Below are positions 2,715-63,044 of a stretch of DNA of 64,000 bases, piece by piece. Position numbers and translations under genes: made by a program. This stretch comes from Octopus vulgaris. Its lineage: Eukaryota. Positions within the stretch are counted from its first letter, which is position 1, and every line of letters starts with the position of its first letter. A model generated the notes under the pieces. That model worked only from the letters and a program-made list of their open reading frames with translations. It did no database searches and had not been told where the DNA came from. The DNA is taken from positions 29,450,001 through 29,514,000 of the forward strand of contig OX597824.1 of NCBI GenBank assembly GCA_951406725.2, in the 5' to 3' direction.

Positions 2715-3214
2715 CATATATATATGAGGATATTATTATCAGTGGCTTAGCATGCGTAAAAAACCCGTAACGGTAAAAAAAAAACATCAATGAATAATTA
2801 AGGGTGCTAACAAGCAGTACTGGCATGGTAAGTATAGCAGTCAAAATGACTAAACTACAAATTTTCACTTAAATACAAAAATGAAAGCGGGCAAATGAAT
2901 AAAAATTCTAAAACCCAGTACCAATGACGAAAATAATCGAAAATTGAAAACGCTAGACATACCCGTATCACAGTGATTTCAAAGTTTGAGAAAAAATCTT
3001 AGTTCATCTTCAGCGAGTCTTACTGTCCCCAGGGTTATAGAAATGCTCATCTCACCAATGTGTGCGTTGAACGTTTTTAATGCCACAGCAAATTTTGACT
3101 TCTATATCCAGCATGCCAATACGACTTGCTAGTACCCTTAATTATATATATATATACAGAATGGTAGAAATTTCGATTATCTCCACGTGTTGAGTTGTAA
3201 TATATATAAGAAAT

Positions 3215-4915
3215 TAAAGACGGAAAATGCGCACACTTTACATAGTTTTAATATATAATATATTTTATATTATGTTTGTCGACTGGTTTCGCTTTCGCTA
3301 ATCATGACATGAAAATTTATTTAAATACGTATTTTCTAAAGTCAAATGATTTTTGTCCATGTTGTGTGTGCAGTTTATGAATGAATGATTCAACAAGTAG
3401 AAAAAATCGAATGGGAGGTAATTGGTGATCGTTATTATTATAGACAGAGGAGACAATTGTCCGTCTTTCGCTGGTGGGGTGCGGAATATATACACAAAAT
3501 TTTGCCAAATTAAAGGTGGTATTTATTTTGATGTGTTTTGGGTGGCATGAGCTAAAAAGGAGATATTACTTCGAGTCCGTTGGTTTATGATAGATGTCAT
3601 TTATAATTTCGTTGTTGAATTTTTTTATCATAATATCCAAAACTGGGAGCTGTTCTTTGCTACATTCCATTGTGAAGTAAATGTTATGGTTTATATCGTT
3701 TAGTGTTAAATTGAATGTTGAAAGTTTATCAATGAAAGTTTATCAAATGATAAACAGTCATCCAGGTATCTTTCACAGTTTTCTCTTATATAATGGTGAA
3801 ATGAAGAACCATATTTTTGCAGTGACGCTTCATATATGGTGAATTCAAAATAACCCATTATCAGGTTCGCAAGAATAGGAGCTGCTTTCGTTCGCATCGC
3901 AATTCTGCATTTTTGACGATAGTAGGTGTCATAAAATAGGAAATAATTTTTCTGAAGTATAAATTCTAAAGATTCAATAATAAAGACCTGCTTTATGCGT
4001 TCCGGAAGTACTTCGGGATACTTATACAACCAGAATTTGATTGCTTTTATTCCATAGTCATGTGAGATGTTGGTGTGAAGATTGATTACATCGAAGGAAA
4101 CCAATAATACCTCTTTATTAATTGTTTTTGGTAGGTACTCTAGCATGTCTAAATCGTCTCGATTGAAACTTTTGATGTATTTCAGCAAGGGTTTCATTAG
4201 GATGTCTAGAAAATTGCTTAGGCGTTGGGTTTCACAGGCTAGGCCAGCTATAATGGGCCACATCTTTAAGTCTTCTGGCGCTTGGATATTTATATATTTG
4301 CCTGATGATTGTTTGCAGGCTTGATTAACTATTTTGCTCACCTGTATTTTAGGTAGGCCGTAAAAAATACTAGGTTTACATTTAAAGTTCGTGATATAAT
4401 ATATTTCTTTTTCTGTCTGGCCTTTTCCATGTAAAAGTATTAAGGACGCAAGATTTTTCATTGTTTTTTGTTATTTATAATTTACAACTTTTTCGTAGAA
4501 GGTATCGTTTTCTAGCATGGATAATACTAGGTTTTTGTAGAATCCTTTGTCCATCAAAACTACCTCACTTCCTTTGTCTGCTTTTTTAATTGTCAGGTCT
4601 TTGTCATTTTGTTGTTCAAATAGATTTTTCCATTCTAGATTGTGGAGGTTTGAATTAATTTTACATTTATGGAAAGTATATGAGAAATTTTGGATATGGT
4701 CGCAGAAGTCATCTAGTGTTATATTCCTACTTTTAGGTAAAAGGTAATTCTGATTTTAACCAGTGACTCATCTTCGTTGTTGTAGTCAGTTAGTGCTTCT
4801 GTGAGTCGTAGTTTTCTGCAGAATTCCGAAATACTGTCTTTAATTTCATTATAGTTAGATCTTCGTGGGGTTGGGGTAAATTTTAATCCTTTAGCCAGTA
4901 TACTTATTTTTGTCA
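3215..4915 (-). mobile_element. Decayed Penelope-like element (PLE) reverse transcriptase
   Basis: Minus-strand remnants LAKGLKFTPTP, IKKADKG, FYGLPKI..PIIAG, LVSFDV..L.TNI, NYF...YYRQ...AM.T..AP.LANL.M, RYLDD, YHKPTDS; several frameshifts and stops; no GIY-YIG domain visible. Confidence 0.88.
3277..3309 (-). ncRNA. Degenerate minimal type I hammerhead ribozyme motif at the PLE 3' end
   Basis: Minus strand reads TGTC-ATGATTA-GC GAAA GC-GAAA-CCAG-TC-GACA: stem I TGTC/GACA, core two mismatches from CUGAUGA, 2-bp stem II with GAAA loop. Confidence 0.6.
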
Positions 4916-25220: not shown

Positions 25221-25267
25221 GTGTATATGTTTGTGTTTGTGTGTGTGTGTGTGTGTGTATACATATA

Positions 25268-25442
25268 GGCGCAGAAGTGGCTCTGTGGTAAGAAGCTTAC
25301 TTCCCAACTACATATTTCCGAGATCAGTCCCTCTGCGTGGCACCTTGGCCGAGTGTCTTCTACTATAGCCTCGGGCCGACCACAGCCTTGTGAGTCGAAT
25401 TGGTAGACGGAAACCGAAAGAAGACCGTCGTATATATGTGTG

Positions 25443-25498
<56 letters not shown>

Positions 25499-34761: not shown

Positions 34762-36026
34762 CAGGAAGTAAATAGACACCTTTAATTTTCAATATCTTTC
34801 ATTTAATGTGCAAAGCGAACAATTGAAATGTAATCGATAGGTAGGACTACATACTTTAGTATTTAGTTGACATTTCCTTAGCAATTTTAATACAGAAACT
34901 CTTTTTGGCATTGAACTGATGAGCTTTATGGTTGTCTCTTGTGAAATTTCTGCCCACTTTTCACGCAACAATTGAAACAATTTACCTTTAGATTTAGGTT
35001 TCTGTCGAGTTTTTCGTATAGCTCTATTTAGTATGCTCCAAAGATTTTCAATTGGGTTCCTGTCAGGTGATTGGCTCGGCCAAGGAAGCTTTTTGATCCC
35101 ATTTTGAGTCAGCCATTGTTGATTCCTTTTCACTGTGTAGCATGGAGCCCCATCTTCCATGAATAAAAACTCATTTTTTATGTTATCGTGTGAATACATC
35201 GGAAGTAGTCCTTGCTTAAGTATTTCGATGTATCTTTCAGAGTTTATGGTTCCACCACATTCGATCAGCTCAGAACGACCGTTGCTGGTACATCTCCCCC
35301 TACCATTTCATTGATACCGTTATGTTTCACAGTTTGCTGGAGTCGTTTCAAATCAAATTCTTAATTGGGAAGACTCCAGATTCAAACACGTCCACTGCCT
35401 GAAAATAATGTAAATCTGGATTCATCTGAGAAAATCACTCTACTCCAAAATTAACTGGATTTTTCTGACATCTCCTTAGCCCATTTCTTTCTTTTCATAT
35501 TAATTGGTTGAAGGAGAGGTGTTCTTCTAGCTGCTCGTCCATAATACCCAAGCTTATGCAGATATGTAACACACGTTCTTGGGCTAACTTCTAGCTGTTT
35601 TGCAATGCCAGAAGCCTTCGAACGGGGTTCGTTTTCCACAATTCTCTTCAAAGAGCGAAGCTTCCTTTCCGAGGGCCTATGTCGGCCGGGACGAGAATCT
35701 ATTGATTCTTTTCTTGGCTTTTGAATTGCACTATAATTCTATTAACAGTAGCAAGATGAATTTTGAAGATTTTCGGCATTTTTTCGCTGGCTAAGACCAG
35801 CCTAAGATTGCCCAACAATACGACTTCTTTGAAAGTCTGACAGTTCGGCTGATTTTTTTTTTTTTTTTTTGCGTGACATGGTTATATGGTTATTCTTCGC
35901 AAATATTTAATATAATGGCACCTGGAATGAAAAAGAATAATTGCATTGTAAATTCTACACGGCTGAAAATATATTAAGACGCTTAGATCAGAAATTTTGA
36001 AAATAAAGGTGTCTATTTACTTCCTG
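34762..36026 (-). mobile_element. Decayed Tc1 (DD34E) transposon with transposase pseudogene
   Basis: TIRs CAGGAAGTAAATAGACACCTTTA at both ends; remnants VIFSDESRF and FMEDGAPC…WPSQSPDRNPIENLW (34 residues between D and E); frameshifted. Confidence 0.92.
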
Positions 36027-46732: not shown

Positions 46733-46893
46733 GAGGCATGGCTTTGTTGTACGAACTTTGCTTCCCAACCATATGGCTCTGGGTTCAGTCCAACAGTGTG
46801 GCACCTTCGGCAAGTGTCTTCAACTATAGCTTCGGGACGAGTACACCCTTCTGAGTGGACATGGTACACGGAAACTGAAAGAAGTCCATCGTA
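46733..46893 (+). mobile_element. CORE-like SINE 5' half
   Basis: …GGGTTCAGTCC…GGCACCTTCGGCAAGTGTCTTC…GGAAACTGAAAGAAG. Confidence 0.75.
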
Positions 46894-46899
46894 TATATA

Positions 46900-47380
46900 T
46901 CTTTATATATATAAAACTGAGAATGTGTGTCTGCCTGTCTGTCTGTCTGTGTGGTTCCCTAAAACTTGAGAACTACACAACCAATTTCATTCAAATTTTA
47001 CACATGCCTTACTTAGGGTCCATGTAGTTTCATGGGCAAAAAAAATGTTCAACTTCTTGCCTAGAGCGAGCCCATAGCAATATCATATCTTCTCCACTAT
47101 TTCAGTATTACGTGTTAAAAGTGAAACAAAAACATTTCTCTATTTTATGTCAGATACTTTCACTTTAACAATAAAAATAATAATAACAATTGAATTATAT
47201 GTAGTAAGTAATAATTAAAATCAAACTAAAGTATATTATCGTAACATAACAAAAGTAAAAATATAGCAATTGGTATAAAATTGCATCAATGACTTGAACT
47301 TGAATCAGTGGTTTCACATGAATGGGAATAAATAAAAAATAAAATTTAAGTGCAGAAATGGAATAGTCCAGATGGAGGTG
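46900..47380 (+). mobile_element. Non-autonomous Helitron 5' portion (candidate 3' end at 58958-58987)
   Basis: A|TCTTTATATATATAAAA start, (TGTC)n, CCAATTTCATTCAAATTTT motif similar to the other Helitrons here. Confidence 0.6.
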
Positions 47381-47429: not shown

Positions 47430-47445
47430 TCTACTGAGTACCGCT
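47430..47445 (+). repeat. 16-bp target-site direct repeat TCTACTGAGTACCGCT, copy 1 of 3
   Basis: Identical copies at 47430-47445, 52706-52721 and 57982-57997 (period 5276 bp). Confidence 0.95.
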
Positions 47446-47629
47446 TCTGTTAATTGCGTTATTTTTCTGTTTGCGTTGTGAGAAAATTGCTGCCTCCATT
47501 TAAGAGAGTCGAAGTTGTGAATTTATTGTTTGTACCAACTGCTTTGAACAGTGCCCGTTGTGAAACGGTGATTTTCGCCCTACGGGGCAGAAAATTTTGT
47601 ATTATTTGAAATTTGCTACCTTTGAGGTG

Positions 47630-49054
47630 ATGGAGTTCGACTTAACGTCGAAGGACGATTTTCCCGTGATGGGAAAAGGTGAAACCATGGAAAACCCAGT
47701 AACCAAACAGTCATTCTCGGCCGCGGTGGGCGGCGCTATGATAGAGGTCGAATTCAAGATCGAACAGCTGTATGAATACAGGAATCTTGTAAAGGTGGAA
47801 GGAGGAGAGATAAGGCTGGTACCGCCGCAAGCGAAAGTGCAAGAAATCAAGGAAAGGATTGTAACTTATAAAGTGTATAGCTTTAAGGAAAAAAAGATTA
47901 TGGACGCGAAAAACGAAATTGTTGAGAAGTGCCTGTCCCCGGTGTGGGACAGAATTCGTCACATCGCGAGAGGCGCACGTAGTGCTACGGTAGAGGTGCA
48001 CTTCGACACGGCAGAAGTGGCGAAGGAGGTGTCGTCGTTAACCTTAAAAAGCGACGACATCATGTTGTTACCCTCGTATATGGGGAAACGAACTGCAAAG
48101 TTAGTGGTAGATGACATACCCAGAGGGTACGACATCATGTGGGTGGCAGCGGCGGTACTACACAACATGGAGCGGGAAATTTCAATTCTGCAAATGAGAA
48201 GGAAGGAAGTGGTACGCTGGAAGGGTCAGACCTTGGAACTCCTCGTACAGGCAGAGAACAAGATCTTGGAGAGCCTGCCTGACAGAATTTTTAATGAGGA
48301 CGGCACGTCCATGAGAGTGTCGGTGGAGGGACGTAGACCCAGATGCTTCAAGTGTGGAGAGAAGGGTCACGTCCGGTCCAACTGCATTAAGAAAAAAAGA
48401 ACAGAAGAAACGCCTCCTCAAAGTGTACCTGTCACTGAAGGGGAGGAAACAAGCAAGAACAACCAAATGAAGAAGACAAGTACGGAAACGAAAACGGATT
48501 CAAAAGAACCAATGGACTACACACAAGTCACACACAAAAGAAAAAAAGAGAACACCCAGGACTCCCCTCCCCAAACAAGGAAAAAAACAACAAACACAGC
48601 AGACACACACATTAAACAAATCCCCCAACCCTACCCCCATGGCACTGTTTTCATTGGAAAACAGTTTGCCAAACCCCTCCCCATAAAACAAGACATCAAA
48701 AAGTGCATATCGAAAAACGAAAGAATTATAGCCTTTGATGAAAAAAATGAAAAAGTTTACAAATGCTGCAAACTCGCGAGATTTCCACTGTATAGTAGAA
48801 CCTCAGATGGGAAGGCGACCGCTCGTTTCGCGAAGGTAGGGGAGAACGAGTGGAAGGAGGAGGTTCTTCAGGAACACCTGAGGAACCGTCTTATTAGAGA
48901 TGTAACCAAGGAGGTAATGGAGGGTAAACTGGCAATAACCCCGGCAACCACACCCACCCAGAGCCCAGTGGCAACGCCGGTCAAGAACCCTGCAGCAACG
49001 GAAGAAAGGGAAGCAGGCAGATTGAAACTGTCATGCTCCCTCTCGCAACCGTGA
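47630..49054 (+). CDS. ORF1 gag-like RNA-binding protein with zinc knuckle, intact in copy 1
   Basis: CFKCGEKGHVRSNC (CX2CX4HX4C) and N-terminal SFSAAV motif; first ATG at 47630, best Kozak context AACCATGG at 47687. Confidence 0.88.
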   Translation: MEFDLTSKDDFPVMGKGETMENPVTKQSFSAAVGGAMIEVEFKIEQLYEYRNLVKVEGGEIRLVPPQAKVQEIKERIVTYKVYSFKEKKIMDAKNEIVEKCLSPVWDRIRHIARGARSATVEVHFDTAEVAKEVSSLTLKSDDIMLLPSYMGKRTAKLVVDDIPRGYDIMWVAAAVLHNMEREISILQMRRKEVVRWKGQTLELLVQAENKILESLPDRIFNEDGTSMRVSVEGRRPRCFKCGEKGHVRSNCIKKKRTEETPPQSVPVTEGEETSKNNQMKKTSTETKTDSKEPMDYTQVTHKRKKENTQDSPPQTRKKTTNTADTHIKQIPQPYPHGTVFIGKQFAKPLPIKQDIKKCISKNERIIAFDEKNEKVYKCCKLARFPLYSRTSDGKATARFAKVGENEWKEEVLQEHLRNRLIRDVTKEVMEGKLAITPATTPTQSPVATPVKNPAATEEREAGRLKLSCSLSQP

Positions 49055-49082
49055 GTATATACATTTCCTTCTCTCACCCACA

Positions 49083-52000
49083 ATGGCTAAGCTGGGCTGT
49101 ATAAATGTACGTGGAATGGGGTCGAAACGGAAACAAATTTGTTTCCTGAACGACCTCACGACACACAGTGTAGATATTGCTATTGCAACCGAGTCCAAGA
49201 TGAGCGAGACCCAAGCGTTCTCGCCTCTTCTAAATGGTTTCGAGAAATTTATTTCTCCTAGCCGAGGAAGAGGCAGAGGCGTGGCAGTCTTCATCAGGAA
49301 GAGCTTGGACTTGCAGGTAAGTACTGTCTTTCTGGACCCAGAAGGCAGGCTGGTTGTCCTGGATGTGACTCACGTAAGTAAACAGTCCTTCAGGTTGGTA
49401 GCTGTCTACGCCCCGAACGAGGGTAGACAGACGGGTTTTTTCCGGAACCTGGAGCCCTTTTTAGCGACGTCGAAAACAGTAATCCTAGTAGGGGACTTTA
49501 ACACTGTCCTTGAAGCGCACATCGACAGTGTTGGCTCAACCAATAGGAAGGGGAACCCTAGCCTCAAGGGTCTACTAGAGAGCTTTGATCTAGTGGACCG
49601 TTACCGACTGGATGAGCCGAGCGTTCCACAGTGGACGTGGAGTAACAACGACGGCTCACACAGATCGTATCTAGATAGGATATTTATTAAGAAAAGAGAT
49701 AAGGATACGTTTAGTTGTCCACAATTTCATATTGTACCTTACTCGGATCACAAATTTGTGACGTGTGAGGTGCAATTAGACAAGTGTCATAGACAGGGAC
49801 CCGGGTACTGGAAGCTGAACAAGGCTATTTTGAATTGTGAAGACTTCCGTACCCGGATTAAGGTGTTAGTTCAGAGGGCATTGTGTGGCACCATCATTAA
49901 CAATAGATGGTGGCACGCCCTCAAAAGAGCCATTCGTTTAGAGTCCGTCAGATTTAGCAATCAGCTAAGGATAGATAGGGCTAGTCTAGAGGGCGATTTA
50001 GTCAAGAATCTAGACGAGGCAATGGAAGCTGGCTCTGCATCCGGAGTGTTGGCGGCAAGGACGGTATTGTACCGTCACCTTAACTCCAAGTACGAAGGTT
50101 GCAGAGTCAGAGCTAAGCTGCGTGCTGGGAAACGAGAAGGTATTAACGTGGCCGGATGGGCCCGTCGTGTGGAGAGTAAGAGAGGCAATAGAGCCTCAAT
50201 TAAATCTTTGACTGACGAACAGGGACAAAAGATCTATGGACAGGAGGAGATGCAAAAGTTTCTTCACCAGCATTTCGCTCGCGTGTTCGGGGGTGGTGGT
50301 TCGCTGGATCGGGGGAGGGCCTTAAAGGACTTCCTGGCCGGCGGACCGCGGCTCGCGGGGCGTGAAGTGGAGTGCTGTGAGGGAGCGATCACTCCCGCGG
50401 AGATAAAGGAGATACTGGCCGGATGCGCCGGGGAGAAGTCGCCGGGGTTGGATGGTCTGCCCTATGAGTTTTACCAAAGTATGCCGGACTTGTTCGGGGG
50501 AATACTGGCAGGCGTCTACACGAACTGGCAGCAGAATGGGAGAATCCCCAGTTCTGTAAGCCGGGGAGTGGTGACGCTAATCCAGAAAGACCCGAGCAAG
50601 GGGGATAATATTAGTAACTACAGGCCCATAACTCTACTTAATGTAGAGTTAAAGATTCTGGCCAAGGTGTTAGCAAAAAGGTTGACGGTTGTCGTGGAGA
50701 AACTTGTAGGGAGAGCACAGACATGTGCAATTCCAGGCAGGTCGATCCAGGACAATCTTCACCTTATACGCTACACCTTAGATAGGGTGGGTAAATTAGC
50801 CGGCAAAGGTGGGGTAATGGTCCATTTAGACCAAAGTAAAGCCTTCGATAGGGTAGACCATGGGTACCTGGCGACGGTCCTCGAAGCGACTGGGCTGGGC
50901 CCTGAATTTCGCGGGTGGATCTCCGCTATGTATAGCGGCATCAAGTCCACCGTCCAGATAAACGGTTACCTAACGGAACCGTTTTCGATCAAGTGTTCAG
51001 TGCGTCAGGGTGCCCCTTGTCACCACTTTTGTACGTATTGGCTCTTGAGCCACTGCTGCGAAAGTTGGAGAGGCTGGGGAGTAACTCGGATGAAATCGGA
51101 GGTGGGAGGACGGTGACTGCTTACGCGGATGACGTCACCCTCATCGTGTCCAAAGAGGCCCAACTACCTTGTGTGGAGGAGGTTATCAGAGGATACGAGG
51201 CGGTGGCAGGAGCAAAGGTTAACAAGGACAAATCGGTTGGCTTGCGCCTCGGCACCTGGAGGAGCAAGCCGATATCGTCCAGTGTCGTGGGACACTGGAC
51301 GGATGGCCCTGTTAAGTTGCTGGGAGTTTGGTTTGGACCAGACTCCCAAACGGAGAAGAACTGGAGCGAGGTGACGAGCAGGGTGGAGGCCATAGTACGG
51401 ACCTGGTCCGGAAGGTCTCTGTCCCTGAAAGGAAGGGCGGAGGTGGTGCAGATGTTTATTGCATCTGTAATCACCTACCGCCTGACCGTTGTCCCTTGCC
51501 CCGATTCATGGCTTAACAAGTTGGAACGAATCCTTTTCCGCTTTTTGTGGAAAGGAGGAAAGCCACTTGTGAGACGATCCGTTTGCTGCCAAGAACCGTT
51601 AAAGGGCGGGTTAGGGATGCCTTGGTTGATGATGCGCAGACATGCGTTGAGGCTAAGGCACCTCTGGCACCACCTGGAGGGTGATAAGGTGTGGAGTCCG
51701 CTGGCAGAGGGATTTTTCCCGAGACCGGCCTCCTTAGTTAATTTTAAACCCGGTTACATCAAAAGATGGAAACTGACTCCATGGCAAAAAGAGTGCCGAC
51801 AGGCACTCACGCTGATCCACAAGACGGGTAAGGCCGGCTGCGGAAATACCACCTCGGTATTTTATAGAGGGCTGGTGGAGGTAAAAAATGACGACGTCCT
51901 AGGAGGGGCTCTGGGGTTTGATGAAGACCAGCTCGCCAACCTGTTTAAAAAAACTTTCAGGTCGGGGTATTTGGATAATTTCCAAAGATCCCTGGCCTGG

Positions 52001-52471
52001 CAGTGCTACAGGAATGCTTTACCTGTTCGCGAGAAGTTATCGCGGCACGGAGTTCAAGTGCCACCGACGTGTCCAAGGTGCGGGTTGGACGATGAAACCG
52101 TCCAGCACGCCTTTGTTCACTGTCGGAAGTTGTCCGACTTGATAAGTTACGCAGAACACGTGTTGTCCCATCTGGGACGAGTACAGCTGTCGGCTGAGTC
52201 TATGATTAAGATGATACCGCCAACTGGACTCTCGAAGGAAGGTGAGGCATGTTTCCACTGCACGGTGGCAGTGGTAAAGGAATGCATGTGGAGAACGAGA
52301 ATGGAAGGAGCCGCGATAGGGTCCTTCATCTCCGGACCCGGCTTGCTCACTTACTTCAGATATCATCTGAAGAGCAAAATGGGGCTGGAGAAGAGGACCC
52401 TGCCGCGGGGTGTGTACGAGAAAAGATGGAAGGAAGTAGAAAGAAAGGTGGGTGTGAGAAACCCAGCTTGA
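49083..52471 (+). pseudogene. ORF2 (endonuclease-RT) of copy 1, split by a -1 frameshift at 51008-51010
   Basis: Same protein as copy 2 ORF2 except GGG instead of GGGG in the RQGCPLSP codons; may be a sequencing error. Confidence 0.85.
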
Positions 52472-52905
52472 TCATGGAGGAGAGAGAGGAAGTGGAAGCT
52501 GCAGGGCCTCACAAATTGCCGGGGTGTAAAAACGCCAGTGAGACGACAAGGTTACCTACTGTTGTTTGCTATACTAGTTAAGCAAAGGTTAATATTTTTA
52601 TAACGAATTTAAACAATTTTTAAACGATTCTCTTAAATGTTTTTGTATGTATGTCCTGTATTTGTAATTCTGTGTACCGATTTTTATAATCGTAATAAAG
52701 AAATATCTACTGAGTACCGCTTCTGTTAATTGCGTTATTTTTCTGTTTGCGTTGTGAGAAAATTGCTGCCTCCATTTAAGAGAGTCGAAGTTGTGAATTT
52801 ATTGTTTGTACCAACTGCTTTGAACAGTGCCCGTTGTGAAACGGTGATTTTCGCCCTACGGGGCAGAAAATTTTGTATTATTTGAAATTTGCTACCTTTG
52901 AGGTG

Positions 52906-54329
52906 ATGGAGTTCGACTTAACGTCGAAGGACGATTTTCCCGTGATGGGAAAAGGTGAAACCATGGAAAACCCAGTAACCAAACAGTCATTCTCGGCCGC
53001 GGTGGGCGGCGCTATGATAGAGGTCGAATTCAAGATCGAACAGCTGTATGAATACAGGAATCTTGTAAAGGTGGAAGGAGGAGAGATAAGGCTGGTACCG
53101 CCGCAAGCGAAAGTGCAAGAAATCAAGGAAAGGATTGTAACTTATAAAGTGTATAGCTTTAAGGAAAAAAAGATTATGGACGCGAAAAACGAAATTGTTG
53201 AGAAGTGCCTGTCCCCGGTGTGGGACAGAATTCGTCACATCGCGAGAGGCGCACGTAGTGCTACGGTAGAGGTGCACTTCGACACGGCAGAAGTGGCGAA
53301 GGAGGTGTCGTCGTTAACCTTAAAAAGCGACGACATCATGTTGTTACCCTCGTATATGGGGAAACGAACTGCAAAGTTAGTGGTAGATGACATACCCAGA
53401 GGGTACGACATCATGTGGGTGGCAGCGGCGGTACTACACAACATGGAGCGGGAAATTTCAATTCTGCAAATGAGAAGGAAGGAAGTGGTACGCTGGAAGG
53501 GTCAGACCTTGGAACTCCTCGTACAGGCAGAGAACAAGATCTTGGAGAGCCTGCCTGACAGAATTTTTAATGAGGACGGCACGTCCATGAGAGTGTCGGT
53601 GGAGGGACGTAGACCCAGATGCTTCAAGTGTGGAGAGAAGGGTCACGTCCGGTCCAACTGCATTAAGAAAAAAGAACAGAAGAAACGCCTCCTCAAAGTG
53701 TACCTGTCACTGAAGGGGAGGAAACAAGCAAGAACAACCAAATGAAGAAGACAAGTACGGAAACGAAAACGGATTCAAAAGAACCAATGGACTACACACA
53801 AGTCACACACAAAAGAAAAAAAGAGAACACCCAGGACTCCCCTCCCCAAACAAGGAAAAAAACAACAAACACAGCAGACACACACATTAAACAAATCCCC
53901 CAACCCTACCCCCATGGCACTGTTTTCATTGGAAAACAGTTTGCCAAACCCCTCCCCATAAAACAAGACATCAAAAAGTGCATATCGAAAAACGAAAGAA
54001 TTATAGCCTTTGATGAAAAAAATGAAAAAGTTTACAAATGCTGCAAACTCGCGAGATTTCCACTGTATAGTAGAACCTCAGATGGGAAGGCGACCGCTCG
54101 TTTCGCGAAGGTAGGGGAGAACGAGTGGAAGGAGGAGGTTCTTCAGGAACACCTGAGGAACCGTCTTATTAGAGATGTAACCAAGGAGGTAATGGAGGGT
54201 AAACTGGCAATAACCCCGGCAACCACACCCACCCAGAGCCCAGTGGCAACGCCGGTCAAGAACCCTGCAGCAACGGAAGAAAGGGAAGCAGGCAGATTGA
54301 AACTGTCATGCTCCCTCTCGCAACCGTGA
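52906..54329 (+). pseudogene. ORF1 of copy 2, split by a -1 frameshift in an A run at 53668-53673
   Basis: A6 versus A7 in copy 1 just after the zinc knuckle; may be a sequencing error. Confidence 0.82.
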
Positions 54330-54357
54330 GTATATACATTTCCTTCTCTCACCCACA

Positions 54358-57300
54358 ATGGCTAAGCTGGGCTGTATAAATGTACGTGGAATGGGGTCGA
54401 AACGGAAACAAATTTGTTTCCTGAACGACCTCACGACACACAGTGTAGATATTGCTATTGCAACCGAGTCCAAGATGAGCGAGACCCAAGCGTTCTCGCC
54501 TCTTCTAAATGGTTTCGAGAAATTTATTTCTCCTAGCCGAGGAAGAGGCAGAGGCGTGGCAGTCTTCATCAGGAAGAGCTTGGACTTGCAGGTAAGTACT
54601 GTCTTTCTGGACCCAGAAGGCAGGCTGGTTGTCCTGGATGTGACTCACGTAAGTAAACAGTCCTTCAGGTTGGTAGCTGTCTACGCCCCGAACGAGGGTA
54701 GACAGACGGGTTTTTTCCGGAACCTGGAGCCCTTTTTAGCGACGTCGAAAACAGTAATCCTAGTAGGGGACTTTAACACTGTCCTTGAAGCGCACATCGA
54801 CAGTGTTGGCTCAACCAATAGGAAGGGGAACCCTAGCCTCAAGGGTCTACTAGAGAGCTTTGATCTAGTGGACCGTTACCGACTGGATGAGCCGAGCGTT
54901 CCACAGTGGACGTGGAGTAACAACGACGGCTCACACAGATCGTATCTAGATAGGATATTTATTAAGAAAAGAGATAAGGATACGTTTAGTTGTCCACAAT
55001 TTCATATTGTACCTTACTCGGATCACAAATTTGTGACGTGTGAGGTGCAATTAGACAAGTGTCATAGACAGGGACCCGGGTACTGGAAGCTGAACAAGGC
55101 TATTTTGAATTGTGAAGACTTCCGTACCCGGATTAAGGTGTTAGTTCAGAGGGCATTGTGTGGCACCATCATTAACAATAGATGGTGGCACGCCCTCAAA
55201 AGAGCCATTCGTTTAGAGTCCGTCAGATTTAGCAATCAGCTAAGGATAGATAGGGCTAGTCTAGAGGGCGATTTAGTCAAGAATCTAGACGAGGCAATGG
55301 AAGCTGGCTCTGCATCCGGAGTGTTGGCGGCAAGGACGGTATTGTACCGTCACCTTAACTCCAAGTACGAAGGTTGCAGAGTCAGAGCTAAGCTGCGTGC
55401 TGGGAAACGAGAAGGTATTAACGTGGCCGGATGGGCCCGTCGTGTGGAGAGTAAGAGAGGCAATAGAGCCTCAATTAAATCTTTGACTGACGAACAGGGA
55501 CAAAAGATCTATGGACAGGAGGAGATGCAAAAGTTTCTTCACCAGCATTTCGCTCGCGTGTTCGGGGGTGGTGGTTCGCTGGATCGGGGGAGGGCCTTAA
55601 AGGACTTCCTGGCCGGCGGACCGCGGCTCGCGGGGCGTGAAGTGGAGTGCTGTGAGGGAGCGATCACTCCCGCGGAGATAAAGGAGATACTGGCCGGATG
55701 CGCCGGGGAGAAGTCGCCGGGGTTGGATGGTCTGCCCTATGAGTTTTACCAAAGTATGCCGGACTTGTTCGGGGGAATACTGGCAGGCGTCTACACGAAC
55801 TGGCAGCAGAATGGGAGAATCCCCAGTTCTGTAAGCCGGGGAGTGGTGACGCTAATCCAGAAAGACCCGAGCAAGGGGGATAATATTAGTAACTACAGGC
55901 CCATAACTCTACTTAATGTAGAGTTAAAGATTCTGGCCAAGGTGTTAGCAAAAAGGTTGACGGTTGTCGTGGAGAAACTTGTAGGGAGAGCACAGACATG
56001 TGCAATTCCAGGCAGGTCGATCCAGGACAATCTTCACCTTATACGCTACACCTTAGATAGGGTGGGTAAATTAGCCGGCAAAGGTGGGGTAATGGTCCAT
56101 TTAGACCAAAGTAAAGCCTTCGATAGGGTAGACCATGGGTACCTGGCGACGGTCCTCGAAGCGACTGGGCTGGGCCCTGAATTTCGCGGGTGGATCTCCG
56201 CTATGTATAGCGGCATCAAGTCCACCGTCCAGATAAACGGTTACCTAACGGAACCGTTTTCGATCAAGTGTTCAGTGCGTCAGGGGTGCCCCTTGTCACC
56301 ACTTTTGTACGTATTGGCTCTTGAGCCACTGCTGCGAAAGTTGGAGAGGCTGGGGAGTAACTCGGATGAAATCGGAGGTGGGAGGACGGTGACTGCTTAC
56401 GCGGATGACGTCACCCTCATCGTGTCCAAAGAGGCCCAACTACCTTGTGTGGAGGAGGTTATCAGAGGATACGAGGCGGTGGCAGGAGCAAAGGTTAACA
56501 AGGACAAATCGGTTGGCTTGCGCCTCGGCACCTGGAGGAGCAAGCCGATATCGTCCAGTGTCGTGGGACACTGGACGGATGGCCCTGTTAAGTTGCTGGG
56601 AGTTTGGTTTGGACCAGACTCCCAAACGGAGAAGAACTGGAGCGAGGTGACGAGCAGGGTGGAGGCCATAGTACGGACCTGGTCCGGAAGGTCTCTGTCC
56701 CTGAAAGGAAGGGCGGAGGTGGTGCAGATGTTTATTGCATCTGTAATCACCTACCGCCTGACCGTTGTCCCTTGCCCCGATTCATGGCTTAACAAGTTGG
56801 AACGAATCCTTTTCCGCTTTTTGTGGAAAGGAGGAAAGCCACTTGTGAGACGATCCGTTTGCTGCCAAGAACCGTTAAAGGGCGGGTTAGGGATGCCTTG
56901 GTTGATGATGCGCAGACATGCGTTGAGGCTAAGGCACCTCTGGCACCACCTGGAGGGTGATAAGGTGTGGAGTCCGCTGGCAGAGGGATTTTTCCCGAGA
57001 CCGGCCTCCTTAGTTAATTTTAAACCCGGTTACATCAAAAGATGGAAACTGACTCCATGGCAAAAAGAGTGCCGACAGGCACTCACGCTGATCCACAAGA
57101 CGGGTAAGGCCGGCTGCGGAAATACCACCTCGGTATTTTATAGAGGGCTGGTGGAGGTAAAAAATGACGACGTCCTAGGAGGGGCTCTGGGGTTTGATGA
57201 AGACCAGCTCGCCAACCTGTTTAAAAAAACTTTCAGGTCGGGGTATTTGGATAATTTCCAAAGATCCCTGGCCTGGCAGTGCTACAGGAATGCTTTACCT

Positions 57301-57747
57301 GTTCGCGAGAAGTTATCGCGGCACGGAGTTCAAGTGCCACCGACGTGTCCAAGGTGCGGGTTGGACGATGAAACCGTCCAGCACGCCTTTGTTCACTGTC
57401 GGAAGTTGTCCGACTTGATAAGTTACGCAGAACACGTGTTGTCCCATCTGGGACGAGTACAGCTGTCGGCTGAGTCTATGATTAAGATGATACCGCCAAC
57501 TGGACTCTCGAAGGAAGGTGAGGCATGTTTCCACTGCACGGTGGCAGTGGTAAAGGAATGCATGTGGAGAACGAGAATGGAAGGAGCCGCGATAGGGTCC
57601 TTCATCTCCGGACCCGGCTTGCTCACTTACTTCAGATATCATCTGAAGAGCAAAATGGGGCTGGAGAAGAGGACCCTGCCGCGGGGTGTGTACGAGAAAA
57701 GATGGAAGGAAGTAGAAAGAAAGGTGGGTGTGAGAAACCCAGCTTGA
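54358..57747 (+). CDS. ORF2: AP endonuclease, reverse transcriptase and C-terminal zinc finger (1129 aa), intact
   Basis: APE motifs INVRG, TES, VYAPN, GDFN, YLDRIF, SDH; RT motifs KSPGLDGL, YRPITLLN, DQSKAFDRV, RQGCPLSP, YADD; CPRC…H…C finger. Confidence 0.96.
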   Translation: MAKLGCINVRGMGSKRKQICFLNDLTTHSVDIAIATESKMSETQAFSPLLNGFEKFISPSRGRGRGVAVFIRKSLDLQVSTVFLDPEGRLVVLDVTHVSKQSFRLVAVYAPNEGRQTGFFRNLEPFLATSKTVILVGDFNTVLEAHIDSVGSTNRKGNPSLKGLLESFDLVDRYRLDEPSVPQWTWSNNDGSHRSYLDRIFIKKRDKDTFSCPQFHIVPYSDHKFVTCEVQLDKCHRQGPGYWKLNKAILNCEDFRTRIKVLVQRALCGTIINNRWWHALKRAIRLESVRFSNQLRIDRASLEGDLVKNLDEAMEAGSASGVLAARTVLYRHLNSKYEGCRVRAKLRAGKREGINVAGWARRVESKRGNRASIKSLTDEQGQKIYGQEEMQKFLHQHFARVFGGGGSLDRGRALKDFLAGGPRLAGREVECCEGAITPAEIKEILAGCAGEKSPGLDGLPYEFYQSMPDLFGGILAGVYTNWQQNGRIPSSVSRGVVTLIQKDPSKGDNISNYRPITLLNVELKILAKVLAKRLTVVVEKLVGRAQTCAIPGRSIQDNLHLIRYTLDRVGKLAGKGGVMVHLDQSKAFDRVDHGYLATVLEATGLGPEFRGWISAMYSGIKSTVQINGYLTEPFSIKCSVRQGCPLSPLLYVLALEPLLRKLERLGSNSDEIGGGRTVTAYADDVTLIVSKEAQLPCVEEVIRGYEAVAGAKVNKDKSVGLRLGTWRSKPISSSVVGHWTDGPVKLLGVWFGPDSQTEKNWSEVTSRVEAIVRTWSGRSLSLKGRAEVVQMFIASVITYRLTVVPCPDSWLNKLERILFRFLWKGGKPLVRRSVCCQEPLKGGLGMPWLMMRRHALRLRHLWHHLEGDKVWSPLAEGFFPRPASLVNFKPGYIKRWKLTPWQKECRQALTLIHKTGKAGCGNTTSVFYRGLVEVKNDDVLGGALGFDEDQLANLFKKTFRSGYLDNFQRSLAWQCYRNALPVREKLSRHGVQVPPTCPRCGLDDETVQHAFVHCRKLSDLISYAEHVLSHLGRVQLSAESMIKMIPPTGLSKEGEACFHCTVAVVKECMWRTRMEGAAIGSFISGPGLLTYFRYHLKSKMGLEKRTLPRGVYEKRWKEVERKVGVRNPA

Positions 57748-58032
57748 TCATGGAGGAGAGAGAGGAAGTGGAAGCTGCAGGGCCTCACAAATTGCCGGGG
57801 TGTAAAAACGCCAGTGAGACGACAAGGTTACCTACTGTTGTTTGCTATACTAGTTAAGCAAAGGTTAATATTTTTATAACGAATTTAAACAATTTTTAAA
57901 CGATTCTCTTAAATGTTTTTGTATGTATGTCCTGTATTTGTAATTCTGTGTACCGATTTTTATAATCGTAATAAAGAAATATCTACTGAGTACCGCTGTT
58001 AGTTTATTTCTGATCCATAAAGGTCTATAGCT

Positions 58033-58490: not shown

Positions 58491-58581
58491 TATATATATA
58501 CAATTGCAGCGTGGAAGGTGTTTATAAGCCATTTAAGAAACACGCAAAAGCCGTTCGATTCACTTCAACATTTAAGTTTAA

Positions 58582-58631
58582 TTTGTCAAAATATTTTCGT
58601 CGCTAAAATCCGCGACCTGTTCACTGACAAA
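58582..58631 (-). ncRNA. Minimal type I hammerhead motif, G3-C8 variant (left arm)
   Basis: Reverse complement of 58703-58752. Confidence 0.7.
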
Positions 58632-58702
58632 AATCCGTGCTGCATCCGATGCAGTGTGTGTGTGTGTGTGTCTGTGTGCTACTGGTAGATGCAGCACGGA
58701 TT

Positions 58703-58752
58703 TTTGTCAGTGAACAGGTCGCGGATTTTAGCGACGAAAATATTTTGACAAA
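58703..58752 (+). ncRNA. Minimal type I hammerhead motif, G3-C8 variant (right arm)
   Basis: TTTGTCA-GTGAACA-G-GTCGC GGATTTTA GCGAC-GAAA-ATAT-TT-TGACAAA. Confidence 0.7.
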
Positions 58753-58957
58753 TTAAACTTAAATGTTGAAGTGAATCGAACGGCTTTTGTGTGTTTCTTA
58801 AATGGCTTACAAACACCTTCCACGCTGCAATTGTTTTCGTTTCAGCACACGATCTCAGATCAAATTACTTGCTATGCGAGTACATCTCTGTATATATATA
58901 GATGTACATGTAATATGTACACATATATATACACATATATACATGCACAAGCACTAT

Positions 58958-58985
58958 GACCCGGCAACGACGGGTCTTTAATGCT

Positions 58986-58987
<2 letters not shown>
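58958..58987 (+). mobile_element. Helitron-type 3' terminus
   Basis: Hairpin GACCCG-GCAACGA-CGGGTC, followed 7 nt later by CTGG|T. Confidence 0.65.
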
Positions 58988-60137: not shown

Positions 60138-60420
60138 GGACTTATTGCCTTCTGAAAGTCTCAAAAGACTTTCAAAGTGCTGCGATTGTATCAACACACT
60201 CTTAAGTTGGATTGTGTAATAGAGATAACTAAACGACAAAATTGTATCTACCAGTAGCACACAGACACACACACACATATACATTATAAGGACAAGTTTA
60301 AATTGGTAATATATGTTAAAATTATAATCGCCAATTTCACACAGGAAGTCCAAACCGTCGGTTAATGGACATGGTTCTTTCGTGCCTGAGATTGTTTCTT
60401 ATGATATGTAATATCATATA

Positions 60421-60584
60421 GGCGTAGGACTGGCTGTATAGTAAGTAGCTGGCTTACCAAGTACATGGTTCAGTCCTACTGCGTGGCACCTTGGGCAAGT
60501 GTCTTCTGCTATAGCCCCGGGCCGACCAAAGCCTTGTGAGTGGATTTGGTAGACGAAAACTGAAAGAAGCCCGTTGTACATATG

Positions 60585-60620
<36 letters not shown>

Positions 60621-62004: not shown

Positions 62005-62416
62005 CTTTACTTTACTTGTTTTTAGTCATTTGACTGCGGCCATGCTGGAGCATCGCCTTTAGTCGAGCAAATCGACCCCGGGACTTATTCTTTGTAAGCC
62101 CAGTACTTAGTCTATCGGTCTCTTTTGCCGAACCGCTAAGTGACGGGGACGTAAACACACCGGCATCGGTTGTCAAGCAATGCTAGAGGGACAAACACAG
62201 ACACACAAACATATACATACACATACATACATACATATATATACATATATACGACAGGCTTCTTTCAGTTTCCGTCTACCAAATCCACTCACAAGGCATT
62301 GGTCGGCCCGAGGCTATAGCAGAAGACACATGTCCAAGGTGCCATGCAGTGGGACTGAACCCAGAACCATGTGTTTGGTAGGCAAGCTACTTACCACACA
62401 GCCACTCCTGCGCCTA
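62005..62416 (-). mobile_element. Full-length CORE-like tRNA SINE
   Basis: Reverse complement of the 60421 family, starting GGCGCAGGAGTGGCTGTGTGGTAAG. Confidence 0.9.
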
Positions 62417-62661
62417 TAGTTGTTGTTTTTTTTTTGTCCTTTTTCTAAGTCTGGTCTTAGTCTCTGAATGTTTTCCGTCTAATTTCGGTTTTGCTCTTTT
62501 CTTCGTCTTATCTCGGTGTTTTCTAAGCAAGTTTCACTCTATTCTGGTTTCGTTGTCAGCTTTTCTTGGTCTTTATTCTTTCTTGCTTTTATTTCAATCA
62601 TGTCTTGCTCTTACTTCGCTGTACGTATTTGCTTGTTTGCTTGTGTCTATATGTGTGTGCT

Positions 62662-63044
62662 GTGGAGGCGCAATGGCCCAGTGGTTAGGGCAGCGGACTC
62701 GCGGTCGTAGGATCGCGGTTTCGATTCCCAGACCGGGCGTTGTGAGTGTTTATTGAGCGAAAACATCTAAAGCTCCACAAGTCTCCGGCAGGGATGATGG
62801 TGATCCCTGTTGTACTCTTTCACCACAACTTTCTCTCACTCTTACTTCCTGTTTCTGTTGTACCTGTATTTCAAAGGGCCGGCCTTGTCACTCTCTGTGT
62901 CACGCTGAATATCCCCGAGAACTACGTTAAGTGTACACTTGTCTGTGGAGTGCTCAGCCACTTACACGTTAATTTCACGAGCAGGCTGTTCCGTTGATCG
63001 GATCAACCGGAACCCTCATCGTCGTAACCGACGGAGTGCTTCCC
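62662..63044 (+). mobile_element. tRNA(Arg)-like-headed SINE with 11-bp TSD
   Basis: GGCGCAATGGCCCAGTGGTTAGGGCAGCGGACTCGCGGTC…GTTTCGATTCCC head; TSD ATGTGTGTGCT at 62651-62661 and 63045-63055. Confidence 0.85.

What the first reader, a model, noticed from the sequence alone, without database searches (positions are those of the whole stretch)
58500..58834. Long palindrome encoding two opposed minimal hammerheads with a compensatory G3-C8 core
Seen: each 147-bp arm contains 7-bp stem I (TTTGTCA/TGACAAA), core GUGAACA, one extra G, 5-bp stem II (GTCGC/GCGAC), GAAA, palindromic stem III AAUAUU and a UUU cleavage triplet. Established: C3 and G8 pair in the active hammerhead and the G3-C8 swap can retain activity; PLEs carry minimal dimerising hammerheads and often leave inverted terminal repeats. 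Standard CUGANGA searches would miss this motif. Inference: a non-canonical ribozyme family; transcription in either direction gives one sense ribozyme plus its antisense, a long dsRNA hairpin that could mask cleavage and be a substrate for A-to-I editing or Dicer.
Basis: partly seen in the sequence, partly recalled or inferred. Interest (0 to 1): 0.75.

Follow-up and report, generated by a model that had tools for sequence, protein, structure and literature searches.

The report
Octopus retroelement hammerhead with flipped core
The palindrome is two head-to-head leftover ends of a very common Penelope-like jumping gene of Octopus, each carrying a predicted self-cutting RNA (hammerhead) whose normally fixed C-G core pair is flipped to G-C in both subfamilies seen, a natural variant I did not find in the papers I could search; whether it cuts is untested.

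Summary
There are two 147-bp arms with 2 mismatches, each with the described type I minimal hammerhead, and 0 of 1,531 simulated windows match it at comparable stems.

It is not a stand-alone ribozyme locus. An ATG 57 nt after the predicted cut starts 29 codons that are 26/29 identical to an Octopus protein. That protein's relatives are reverse transcriptases with a linker zinc finger and a weakly matched GIY-YIG end, i.e. a canonical Penelope-like element (PLE), Neptune/Nematis type.

Thousands of sequencing contigs map to the unit. Copies end either where the left arm ends or past a ~57-bp 'tail', next to (TA)n. That is the published PLE inverted-plus-tail insertion, and opposite-strand hammerhead pairs are also published.

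What is new is the G3-C8 core, shared by two loop-II subfamilies. Natural U3-A8 is known and an engineered G3-C8 is partly active in a PLE hammerhead, but I found no natural G3-C8; four key papers were not held. Cleavage and phased covariation are not shown. In this locus the antisense arm is transcribed first in either direction and would mask the ribozyme, so the copy is likely inert. Editing or Dicer processing is untested.

The parts
58500..58646 (-). Inverted, 5'-truncated copy of the PLE terminal repeat (pLTR) plus first 11 codons; ends at the family's short 3' end
   Evidence: family loose ends at 58831-58836 followed by AT-rich/(TA)n sequence
58582..58631 (-). Minimal type I hammerhead motif, G3-C8 core (core starts 58624, predicted cut after 58589)
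58500..58532 (-). First 11 codons of the PLE ORF (MAYKHLPRCNC)
58647..58687 (.). 41-nt junction filler: C, a 7-nt restart of the arm (GATGCAG), then 33 nt that largely match 60243-60277 on the - strand
   Evidence: sequence; 35-bp 97% match; whether it is element-internal or locally templated is not settled
58688..58834 (+). Sense, 5'-truncated copy of the PLE terminal repeat
58703..58752 (+). Minimal type I hammerhead motif, G3-C8 core, extra G, palindromic helix III; predicted cut after 58745
58802..58891 (+). Start of the PLE ORF (29 codons matched, 26 identical to Octopus sinensis protein P0001)
58835..58891 (+). 'Tail' (~57 bp) present on one end only
   Evidence: contigs run on to 58884; a loose-end consensus reads through to the TA junction; tail concept
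58491..58499 (.). (TA)n target flank, left
   Evidence: sequence
58892..58900 (.). (TA)n target flank, right
   Evidence: sequence

Best explanation
The locus is two 5'-truncated ends of an abundant Octopus Penelope-like retroelement joined head to head in a TA repeat, each carrying a predicted minimal hammerhead whose 3-8 core pair is G-C instead of C-G. In the parent element the ribozyme likely cuts the RNA 57 nt ahead of the start codon, as a dimer or with help from the element's protein, while in this palindrome it would be masked and inert. Shown: sequence, ORF homology, high repetition, two preferred 3' ends, same core in a second subfamily. Inferred from PLE biochemistry (PMC11167929): the element's protein nicks both strands of the TA target and starts reverse transcription at two sites inside the ORF start (here about +33 and +90). 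This would give a short and a long cDNA pointing in opposite directions, joined at their 5' ends through the 41-nt filler. Inferred: cleavage activity.
For: ORF link. The window peptide matches P0001 at 26/29. P0001 1-218 finds 16 relatives, among them O. bimaculoides P0002 and O. vulgaris P0003 (10 of the 16 looked up). P0018, from P0003's cluster, is 41% identical over 477 aa to P0020, which has the YVDD motif. P0020 finds 93 relatives. Of 97 proteins examined, 78 have an RYxDD-type motif and 60 a CX2-5CxxC motif after it. ESM Atlas neighbours of full-length P0022 at 0.96-0.97 carry RVT_1, HTH_animal and GIY-YIG. Repetition: 14,348, 11,669 and 5,029 contigs were laid in three runs, and 19 of 24 listed runs hold half or more of the words. 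Ends: 22-43 contigs per row stop at 58831-58836, while others continue to 58884. The short end lies 89 nt past the cut; in the anole PLE, RT starts 85-92 nt past its cut (computed). Core: an alternative-loop-II subfamily (81, 77 and 58 contigs) keeps stem I, GUGAACAG and stem II. Non-CpG variable sites: loop II 4 of 7, stems and core 1 of 18 (Fisher p=0.012); that one site (58748 A>G, 7-17% of depth) leaves a U-G pair. Activity precedent: the C3G/G8C double mutant partly restores cleavage of a PLE hammerhead. Masking: stem II pairing probability is about 1e-20 in the whole transcript, and the antisense arm comes first on both strands.
Against: No DNA of a full-length parent was obtained, so the hammerhead-to-RT link rests on protein homology through a chimeric gene model (P0001 ends in a methyltransferase domain), backed by P0002. 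Pfam RVT_1 (4 of 20 members) and GIY-YIG (1 of 20) hits are below curated cut-offs, and my GIY-YIG pattern matched 0 of 97. Positions 3 and 8 lay too near the edge of the scored region to appear in the variant table, so a C3-G8 minority is not excluded. No two-sided compensatory change was seen, and the contigs are unphased. Stems and core are not more conserved than the downstream flank (1 of 18 against 10 of 89, p=0.69). The single contig from the RNA run (depth 3.3) reads A at position 8. Two of the three high-count runs may be the source of the window. The AAUAUU self-duplex is weak (-0.2 kcal/mol). Both arms break at the same 5' base, which also fits fold-back copying.
Confidence: 0.8

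Rival explanations
1. Same element, but the G3-C8 motif is a non-cleaving relic or a purely structural protein-binding fold, and the family spread without ribozyme activity.
For: Hammerhead mutants did not impair PLE insertion in vitro, and no RNA ends were found at the cut site in anole RNA-seq. Minimal PLE hammerheads cleave poorly. Helix III is all A-U. The core is no more conserved than the flank.
Against: A double change that keeps the 3-8 pair, with all other core positions, G10.1-C11.1 and the palindrome intact and loop II free to vary, is what selection for the active fold predicts. The engineered swap is partly active.
Confidence: 0.3
2. The palindrome arose by fold-back copying of one inserted PLE end (snap-back at a 1-nt loop plus a templated filler), not from two cDNAs. 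The ribozyme identity is unchanged.
For: Both arms start at the same base. The loop begins with C plus a 7-nt restart of the arm and contains 35 bp matching a site 1.6 kb away. Both arms share minority alleles at 58758, 58778 and 58784.
Against: The left arm stops exactly at the family's preferred short 3' end, next to (TA)n, which random fold-back would not pick. Inverted 5'-truncated copies with a one-sided tail are typical of PLE insertion.
Confidence: 0.25
3. One reading: the palindrome is a functional device in which antisense pairing regulates cleavage and feeds A-to-I editing or Dicer.
For: A 147-bp near-perfect duplex (-274 kcal/mol) would form if the locus is transcribed.
Against: No transcript of the locus is shown. 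RNA-labelled runs were guesses or held a small share, and the one RNA contig laid had no A>G change. The arrangement is a routine insertion by-product.
Confidence: 0.07
4. The motif is a chance match inside a MITE or Helitron-type fold-back element.
For: A hairpin followed by CTGG, recalled as Helitron-like, lies at 58958-58987. A looser descriptor has a 0.1-2% chance per window.
Against: The PLE ORF start lies 57 nt downstream in sense. The full descriptor gave 0 of 1,531 simulated windows at comparable stems. PLE-type ends are present.
Confidence: 0.03

Closest known systems
Minimal type I hammerheads of metazoan PLE pseudo-LTRs (Cervera & de la Pena 2014, PMC4209133; read: main text parts 1-2 of 4, supplement file 2 parts 1-2 of 3)
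   Same: Type I; U-rich 5' flank; extra nucleotide between 9 and 10.1; G10.1-C11.1; short palindromic helix III as in D. virilis and Aedes; NUH; AU-rich 3' flank; mostly single dispersed motifs; pairs on opposite strands 100-700 bp apart and an opposite-strand second motif at the 5' end of a truncated PLE (Fig. S4A legend).
   Different: Core pair is G3-C8. All 56 representatives in Fig. S3 read C3-G8 or U3-A8, and none is from a cephalopod. The extra nucleotide is G where the consensus is H (one listed example has G).
Poseidon element PAc of Anolis carolinensis (Frangieh et al. 2024, PMC11167929; read: parts 1-2 of 4, supplements searched without hits)
   Same: Hammerhead at the pLTR-ORF junction; AT-rich target; tail between two 3' ends inside the ORF start; first end about 85-92 nt past the cut (89 here); G3-C8 made by mutagenesis is partly active.
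   Different: The PAc core is C3-G8 and its ORF starts inside the ribozyme; here the ATG is 57 nt after the cut. The tail is about 57 bp rather than 30-40. The protein is of another clade (linker zinc finger, DKS motif, about 130 aa between RT motifs A and B).
Neptune and Nematis clades of C-terminal EN+ PLEs (Craig et al. 2021, PMC8557442 and preprint; read: passages and section 11)
   Same: [quoted passage not shown]
   Different: The clade was not resolved here (no tree against reference elements). A Nematis leaning rests on recall of DKS-type RTs and on an Atlas neighbour cluster rich in nematodes.
Natural U3-A8 hammerhead core variants (Perreault et al. 2011, PMC3088659, passages; Schistosoma Cercyon PLEs, PMC4209133)
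   Same: Natural covariation that keeps the 3-8 Watson-Crick pair; found at family scale in a PLE.
   Different: U3-A8 is a double transition; G3-C8 is a purine-pyrimidine inversion by two transversions and puts a pyrimidine at position 8.

Membership tests
Hammerhead ribozyme (type I, minimal PLE form) | Core U4 G5 A6 N7 A9, G12 A13 A14, A15.1-U16.1, H17 in a three-way junction | tested here: met
Hammerhead ribozyme (type I, minimal PLE form) | C3 and G8 as in the consensus CUGANGA | tested here: not met
   G3 and C8; no Rfam hammerhead hit up to E=10
Hammerhead ribozyme (type I, minimal PLE form) | Watson-Crick complementarity of positions 3 and 8 | tested here: met
   G-C in both arms and in the alternative-loop subfamily; one low-depth contig has G-A
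Hammerhead ribozyme (type I, minimal PLE form) | Stems I and II, extra nucleotide after A9, G10.1-C11.1, palindromic helix III | tested here: met
   against the consensus
Hammerhead ribozyme (type I, minimal PLE form) | Compensatory stem changes across copies | tested here: inconclusive
   Loop II more variable than stems and core (p=0.012), one wobble-keeping change, no two-sided change, unphased contigs, 5' half not scorable
Hammerhead ribozyme (type I, minimal PLE form) | Self-cleavage after H17 (as dimer or protein-assisted) | not testable with these tools
   needs an in vitro assay
Canonical (C-terminal EN+) Penelope-like element | Single ORF with PLE-type RT | tested here: met
   Through homology of the 29-codon start to P0001/P0002 and on to P0003/P0018/P0020/P0022; DKSG, LYGLRKDHK and YVDD motifs. 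The locus itself holds only the ORF start.
Canonical (C-terminal EN+) Penelope-like element | C-terminal GIY-YIG endonuclease with CCHH | tested here: inconclusive
   Pfam GIY-YIG E=0.003, below cut-off, in 1 of 20 relatives; degenerate motif with two Cys and two His visible by eye in P0022; Atlas neighbours carry GIY-YIG; my pattern matched 0 of 97
Canonical (C-terminal EN+) Penelope-like element | Hammerhead in the terminal repeat, in sense and next to the ORF start | tested here: met
   cut site 57 nt before the ATG
Canonical (C-terminal EN+) Penelope-like element | Inverted 5'-truncated copy, tail on one end, AT/(TA)n target | tested here: met
   definition
Neptune/Nematis clades | CX2-5CxxC linker between RT and endonuclease | tested here: met
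   60 of 97 proteins examined, including O. vulgaris P0054, which is a relative and not shown to be this very family
Neptune/Nematis clades | RT phylogeny placing it in one clade | not tested
   no reference clade sequences were at hand
Naiad/Chlamys PLEs | N-terminal GIY-YIG and DKA motif | tested here: not met
   ORF start aligns with RT-first proteins; motif is DKS
Non-LTR retrozyme | Head-to-tail tandem units each with a hammerhead | tested here: not met
   This locus is head-to-head. A go-back joint 58822 to 58700 in one run hints at tandem forms elsewhere.

The most novel reading that the evidence does not exclude
G3-C8 hammerheads are an active, selected ribozyme variant carried in thousands of copies by an Octopus PLE family, and perhaps by the whole DKS-type PLE lineage of marine invertebrates. 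They would be invisible to CUGANGA descriptors and Rfam, so PLE ribozyme censuses, including statements that some clades lack hammerheads, would undercount them. The cut 57 nt before the ATG would make the uncapped, translatable 5' end of the element's RNA.
Probability: 0.3. Interest if true: 0.65.

Novelty: new variant of a known kind. Interest (0 to 1): 0.45.

Why it matters
A natural, family-wide G3-C8 core would be evolutionary confirmation of the tertiary 3-8 pair by full inversion. It implies selection for the active fold in PLE hammerheads, whose role is still debated because they cleave weakly and are dispensable for insertion in vitro. It gives a natural substrate to test whether PLE hammerheads need dimers or the element's protein. 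It also exposes a blind spot in descriptor-based ribozyme surveys. The palindrome itself is an ordinary insertion product.

Tried and rejected
No whole genome was held for this window, so the genome-wide descriptor search could not be run. Rfam scan: no hammerhead; only sub-threshold hairpin and microsatellite matches. Metagenome pattern scan: 1 match, inside what reads as a bacterial sigma-factor-like gene and without stem II, dropped as chance. Viral collection: 0 matches to the DNA motif; 0 confirmed loci for P0018 and for alignment A2. Prokaryote genome collection: 1 locus (L002, 33% identity) whose 390 bp after the ORF show no hammerhead, so no relative's ribozyme could be compared. P0001 1-218 against longer proteins: 0 of 878 candidates at E<=1. 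PDB: no hit for P0020 alone; two weak RT hits for the profile. The other PLE RT fragment in the window (3706-4470, -) is only weakly similar to this clade (E=0.004) and shares no DNA with the unit, so it was rejected as the parent. Helitron reading: my first guess, rejected once the ORF link appeared; linkage of the hairpin at 58958-58987 could not be tested because the read-laying tool skipped 58885-58985 and 58620-58684 as repeats. Run X20 (share 0.18) gave a single low-depth contig and is not used as evidence of expression. No structure model was obtained. Earlier scan notes: nothing by sequence or place. Literature: searches gave only engineered G3-C8 or natural U3-A8. Lunse 2017, Arkhipova 2017, Seehafer 2011 and Hammann 2012 were not held and may report natural G3-C8; supplement file 1 of PMC4209133 was not searchable.

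Full report
Observation. The palindrome is real: arms 58500-58646 and 58688-58834, 147 bp, 2 mismatches, 41-nt loop. A loose descriptor is not rare in such DNA (about 0.9-1.1 hits per simulated window, and three loose hits at two other places in the real window). Adding the features published for PLE hammerheads (G10.1-C11.1, palindromic helix III, optional extra nucleotide) leaves only these two hits in the window, 1 in 1,531 simulated windows at the loosest stems and 0 at stems I>=5, II>=4. Rfam does not see the motif.

What carries it. An ATG at 58802, 57 nt after the predicted cut and in the same sense, opens 29 codons. These match the first 29 residues of an Octopus sinensis gene model at 26 positions (1 hit of 1 candidate). 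That model is a chimera ending in a methyltransferase domain. Its first 218 residues find 16 relatives, including O. bimaculoides P0002, which has the same start, and O. vulgaris P0003; P0018 from the same cluster runs into PLE-type RT motifs. P0018 is 41% identical over 477 aa to P0020, and P0020 has 93 relatives up to about 1,200 aa. Of 97 proteins examined, 78 show the catalytic RYxDD and 60 a CX2-5CxxC motif after it; many of the rest are truncated. Pfam evidence is weak: RVT_1 in 4 of 20 and GIY-YIG in 1 of 20, below cut-off. The Atlas neighbours of P0022 carry RVT_1, HTH_animal and GIY-YIG. By the definitions in Craig et al. 2021 (passages) this is a canonical RT-first PLE of Neptune/Nematis type. 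The host genus is inferred from these protein hits.

Family evidence. 20 of 24 listed runs, from 11 studies, hold the stretch or part of it; 8 may be the window's source. I laid 4 of the 24. Three gave 14,348, 11,669 and 5,029 contigs, two of the three being possible sources, and the fourth gave 1 contig. Summed depth is not a copy number, but thousands of distinct contigs on 200 bp imply a highly repeated family (inference). Many contigs stop at 58831-58836 and go on in AT-rich or (TA)n sequence, exactly where the left arm stops; others run to 58884, the edge of the scored region. The insertion is therefore a short-ended inverted copy plus a long-ended copy with a tail of about 57 bp, in (TA)n, the arrangement described for PLEs. 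In the anole PLE, reverse transcription starts 111-118 nt into the ORF and the cut lies at +26, i.e. 85-92 nt past the cut; here the short end is 89 nt past it. Opposite-strand hammerhead pairs are described for Schistosoma and for a wasp bracovirus PLE.

The core. A second subfamily with another loop II (81, 77 and 58 contigs; agreement 0.72-0.78) keeps stem I, GUGAACAG and stem II, so G3-C8 is not private to this locus. Among sites varying at 2% or more in at least one run, non-CpG changes hit 4 of 7 loop II positions but 1 of 18 stem and core positions (p=0.012). That one change, 58748 A>G, keeps a U-G pair. Against this: stems and core are not more conserved than the downstream 5' UTR and ORF start (10 of 89, p=0.69); CpG decay hits stem II and G12 (0.2-3.6% of depth); no two-sided change was seen; positions before 58721, including 3 and 8, were too close to the cut edge to be scored; and the single RNA-run contig has A at position 8.

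How it likely works. In the parent RNA the motif would fold as a type I hammerhead with an unstable helix III. By analogy with tested PLE hammerheads it would cut weakly as a dimer or when the element's protein is bound; in that protein-assisted system the engineered C3G/G8C swap partly restores cleavage. I put activity in the parent at about 55%. The cut would leave a 57-nt leader; self-cleavage promoting cap-independent translation is reported for viral hammerheads (passages), which is a lead only. At this locus no sense tandem exists. The antisense arm is transcribed first from either direction and stem II pairing drops to about 1e-20, so the copy is probably silent. It most likely formed when two cDNAs, primed on opposite strands of the nicked TA target at the two RT start sites, were joined at their 5' ends. 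Fold-back copying is the rival, since both arms begin at the same base and the filler starts with a 7-nt restart.

Novelty. The natural 3-8 covariation in the papers I could read is U3-A8. All 56 representative PLE hammerheads in the Cervera supplement are C3-G8 or U3-A8, and none is cephalopod. Searches for G3-C8 wording returned only engineered variants. A 2026 Octopus repeat annotation does not mention hammerheads or ribozymes (term counts 0), and the hammerhead-plus-octopus search listed no paper that, by title or abstract, reports one. Four relevant papers (Lunse 2017, Arkhipova 2017, Seehafer 2011, Hammann 2012) were not held, so a prior report cannot be excluded.

Verdict: new variant of a known kind. 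The palindrome is ordinary; the family-level G3-C8 core is the finding. Interest 0.45.

Noticed in passing
window 47430-57997: Two near-identical Tx1/L1-type LINEs in tandem (ORF1 with zinc knuckle; ORF2 with APE, RT and zf-RVT), with the same 15-bp motif at 47430, 52706 and 57982, suggesting a sequence-specific target. One copy is frameshifted in ORF2, the other in ORF1.
   Followed up: partly
window 3706-4900 (-) and 2960-3020 (-): Decayed PLE RT of another type (DKG motif), with a loose canonical-core hammerhead-like hit about 700 bp downstream (core at 3013, palindrome-like helix III, poor stem II).
   Followed up: partly
window 58958-58987: 6-bp GC-rich hairpin followed by CTGG and (TA)n; recalled as resembling a Helitron 3' end; link to the PLE fragment not testable.
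   Followed up: no
window 60243-60277 (-): 35-bp copy of the palindrome's loop and junction, 1.6 kb away; either the template of the filler or a fragment of a shared upstream sequence.
   Followed up: partly
family joint 58822 to 58700 (run X5): A go-back joint with depth about 1,590 implies some head-to-tail units of about 127 nt that would place hammerheads in tandem, as in retrozymes.
   Followed up: no
P0001 (O. sinensis LOC115227545): Gene model fusing about 220 residues of the PLE ORF to a methyltransferase domain; probably a mis-annotation, possibly a real chimera.
   Followed up: no
P0020-P0114: This PLE group has about 130 aa between RT motifs A and B (median of 81 proteins), roughly twice the spacing read by eye in the window's other PLE; the passages read describe a fingers insertion only for Naiad/Chlamys and some Coprina.
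   Followed up: partly
L002:1-2683: A PLE-type RT-endonuclease ORF on a short contig filed in a bacterial MAG, probably eukaryotic contamination.
   Followed up: partly
window 34789-35307 (-): DDE_3 (Tc1-type) transposase fragment.
   Followed up: no
window 60417-60600 and copies at 62228-62418, 25262-25454, 46782-46913 and others; 62660-62740: Dispersed SINE-like repeats; recalled as similar to Octopus tRNA-derived SINEs, not checked.
   Followed up: no
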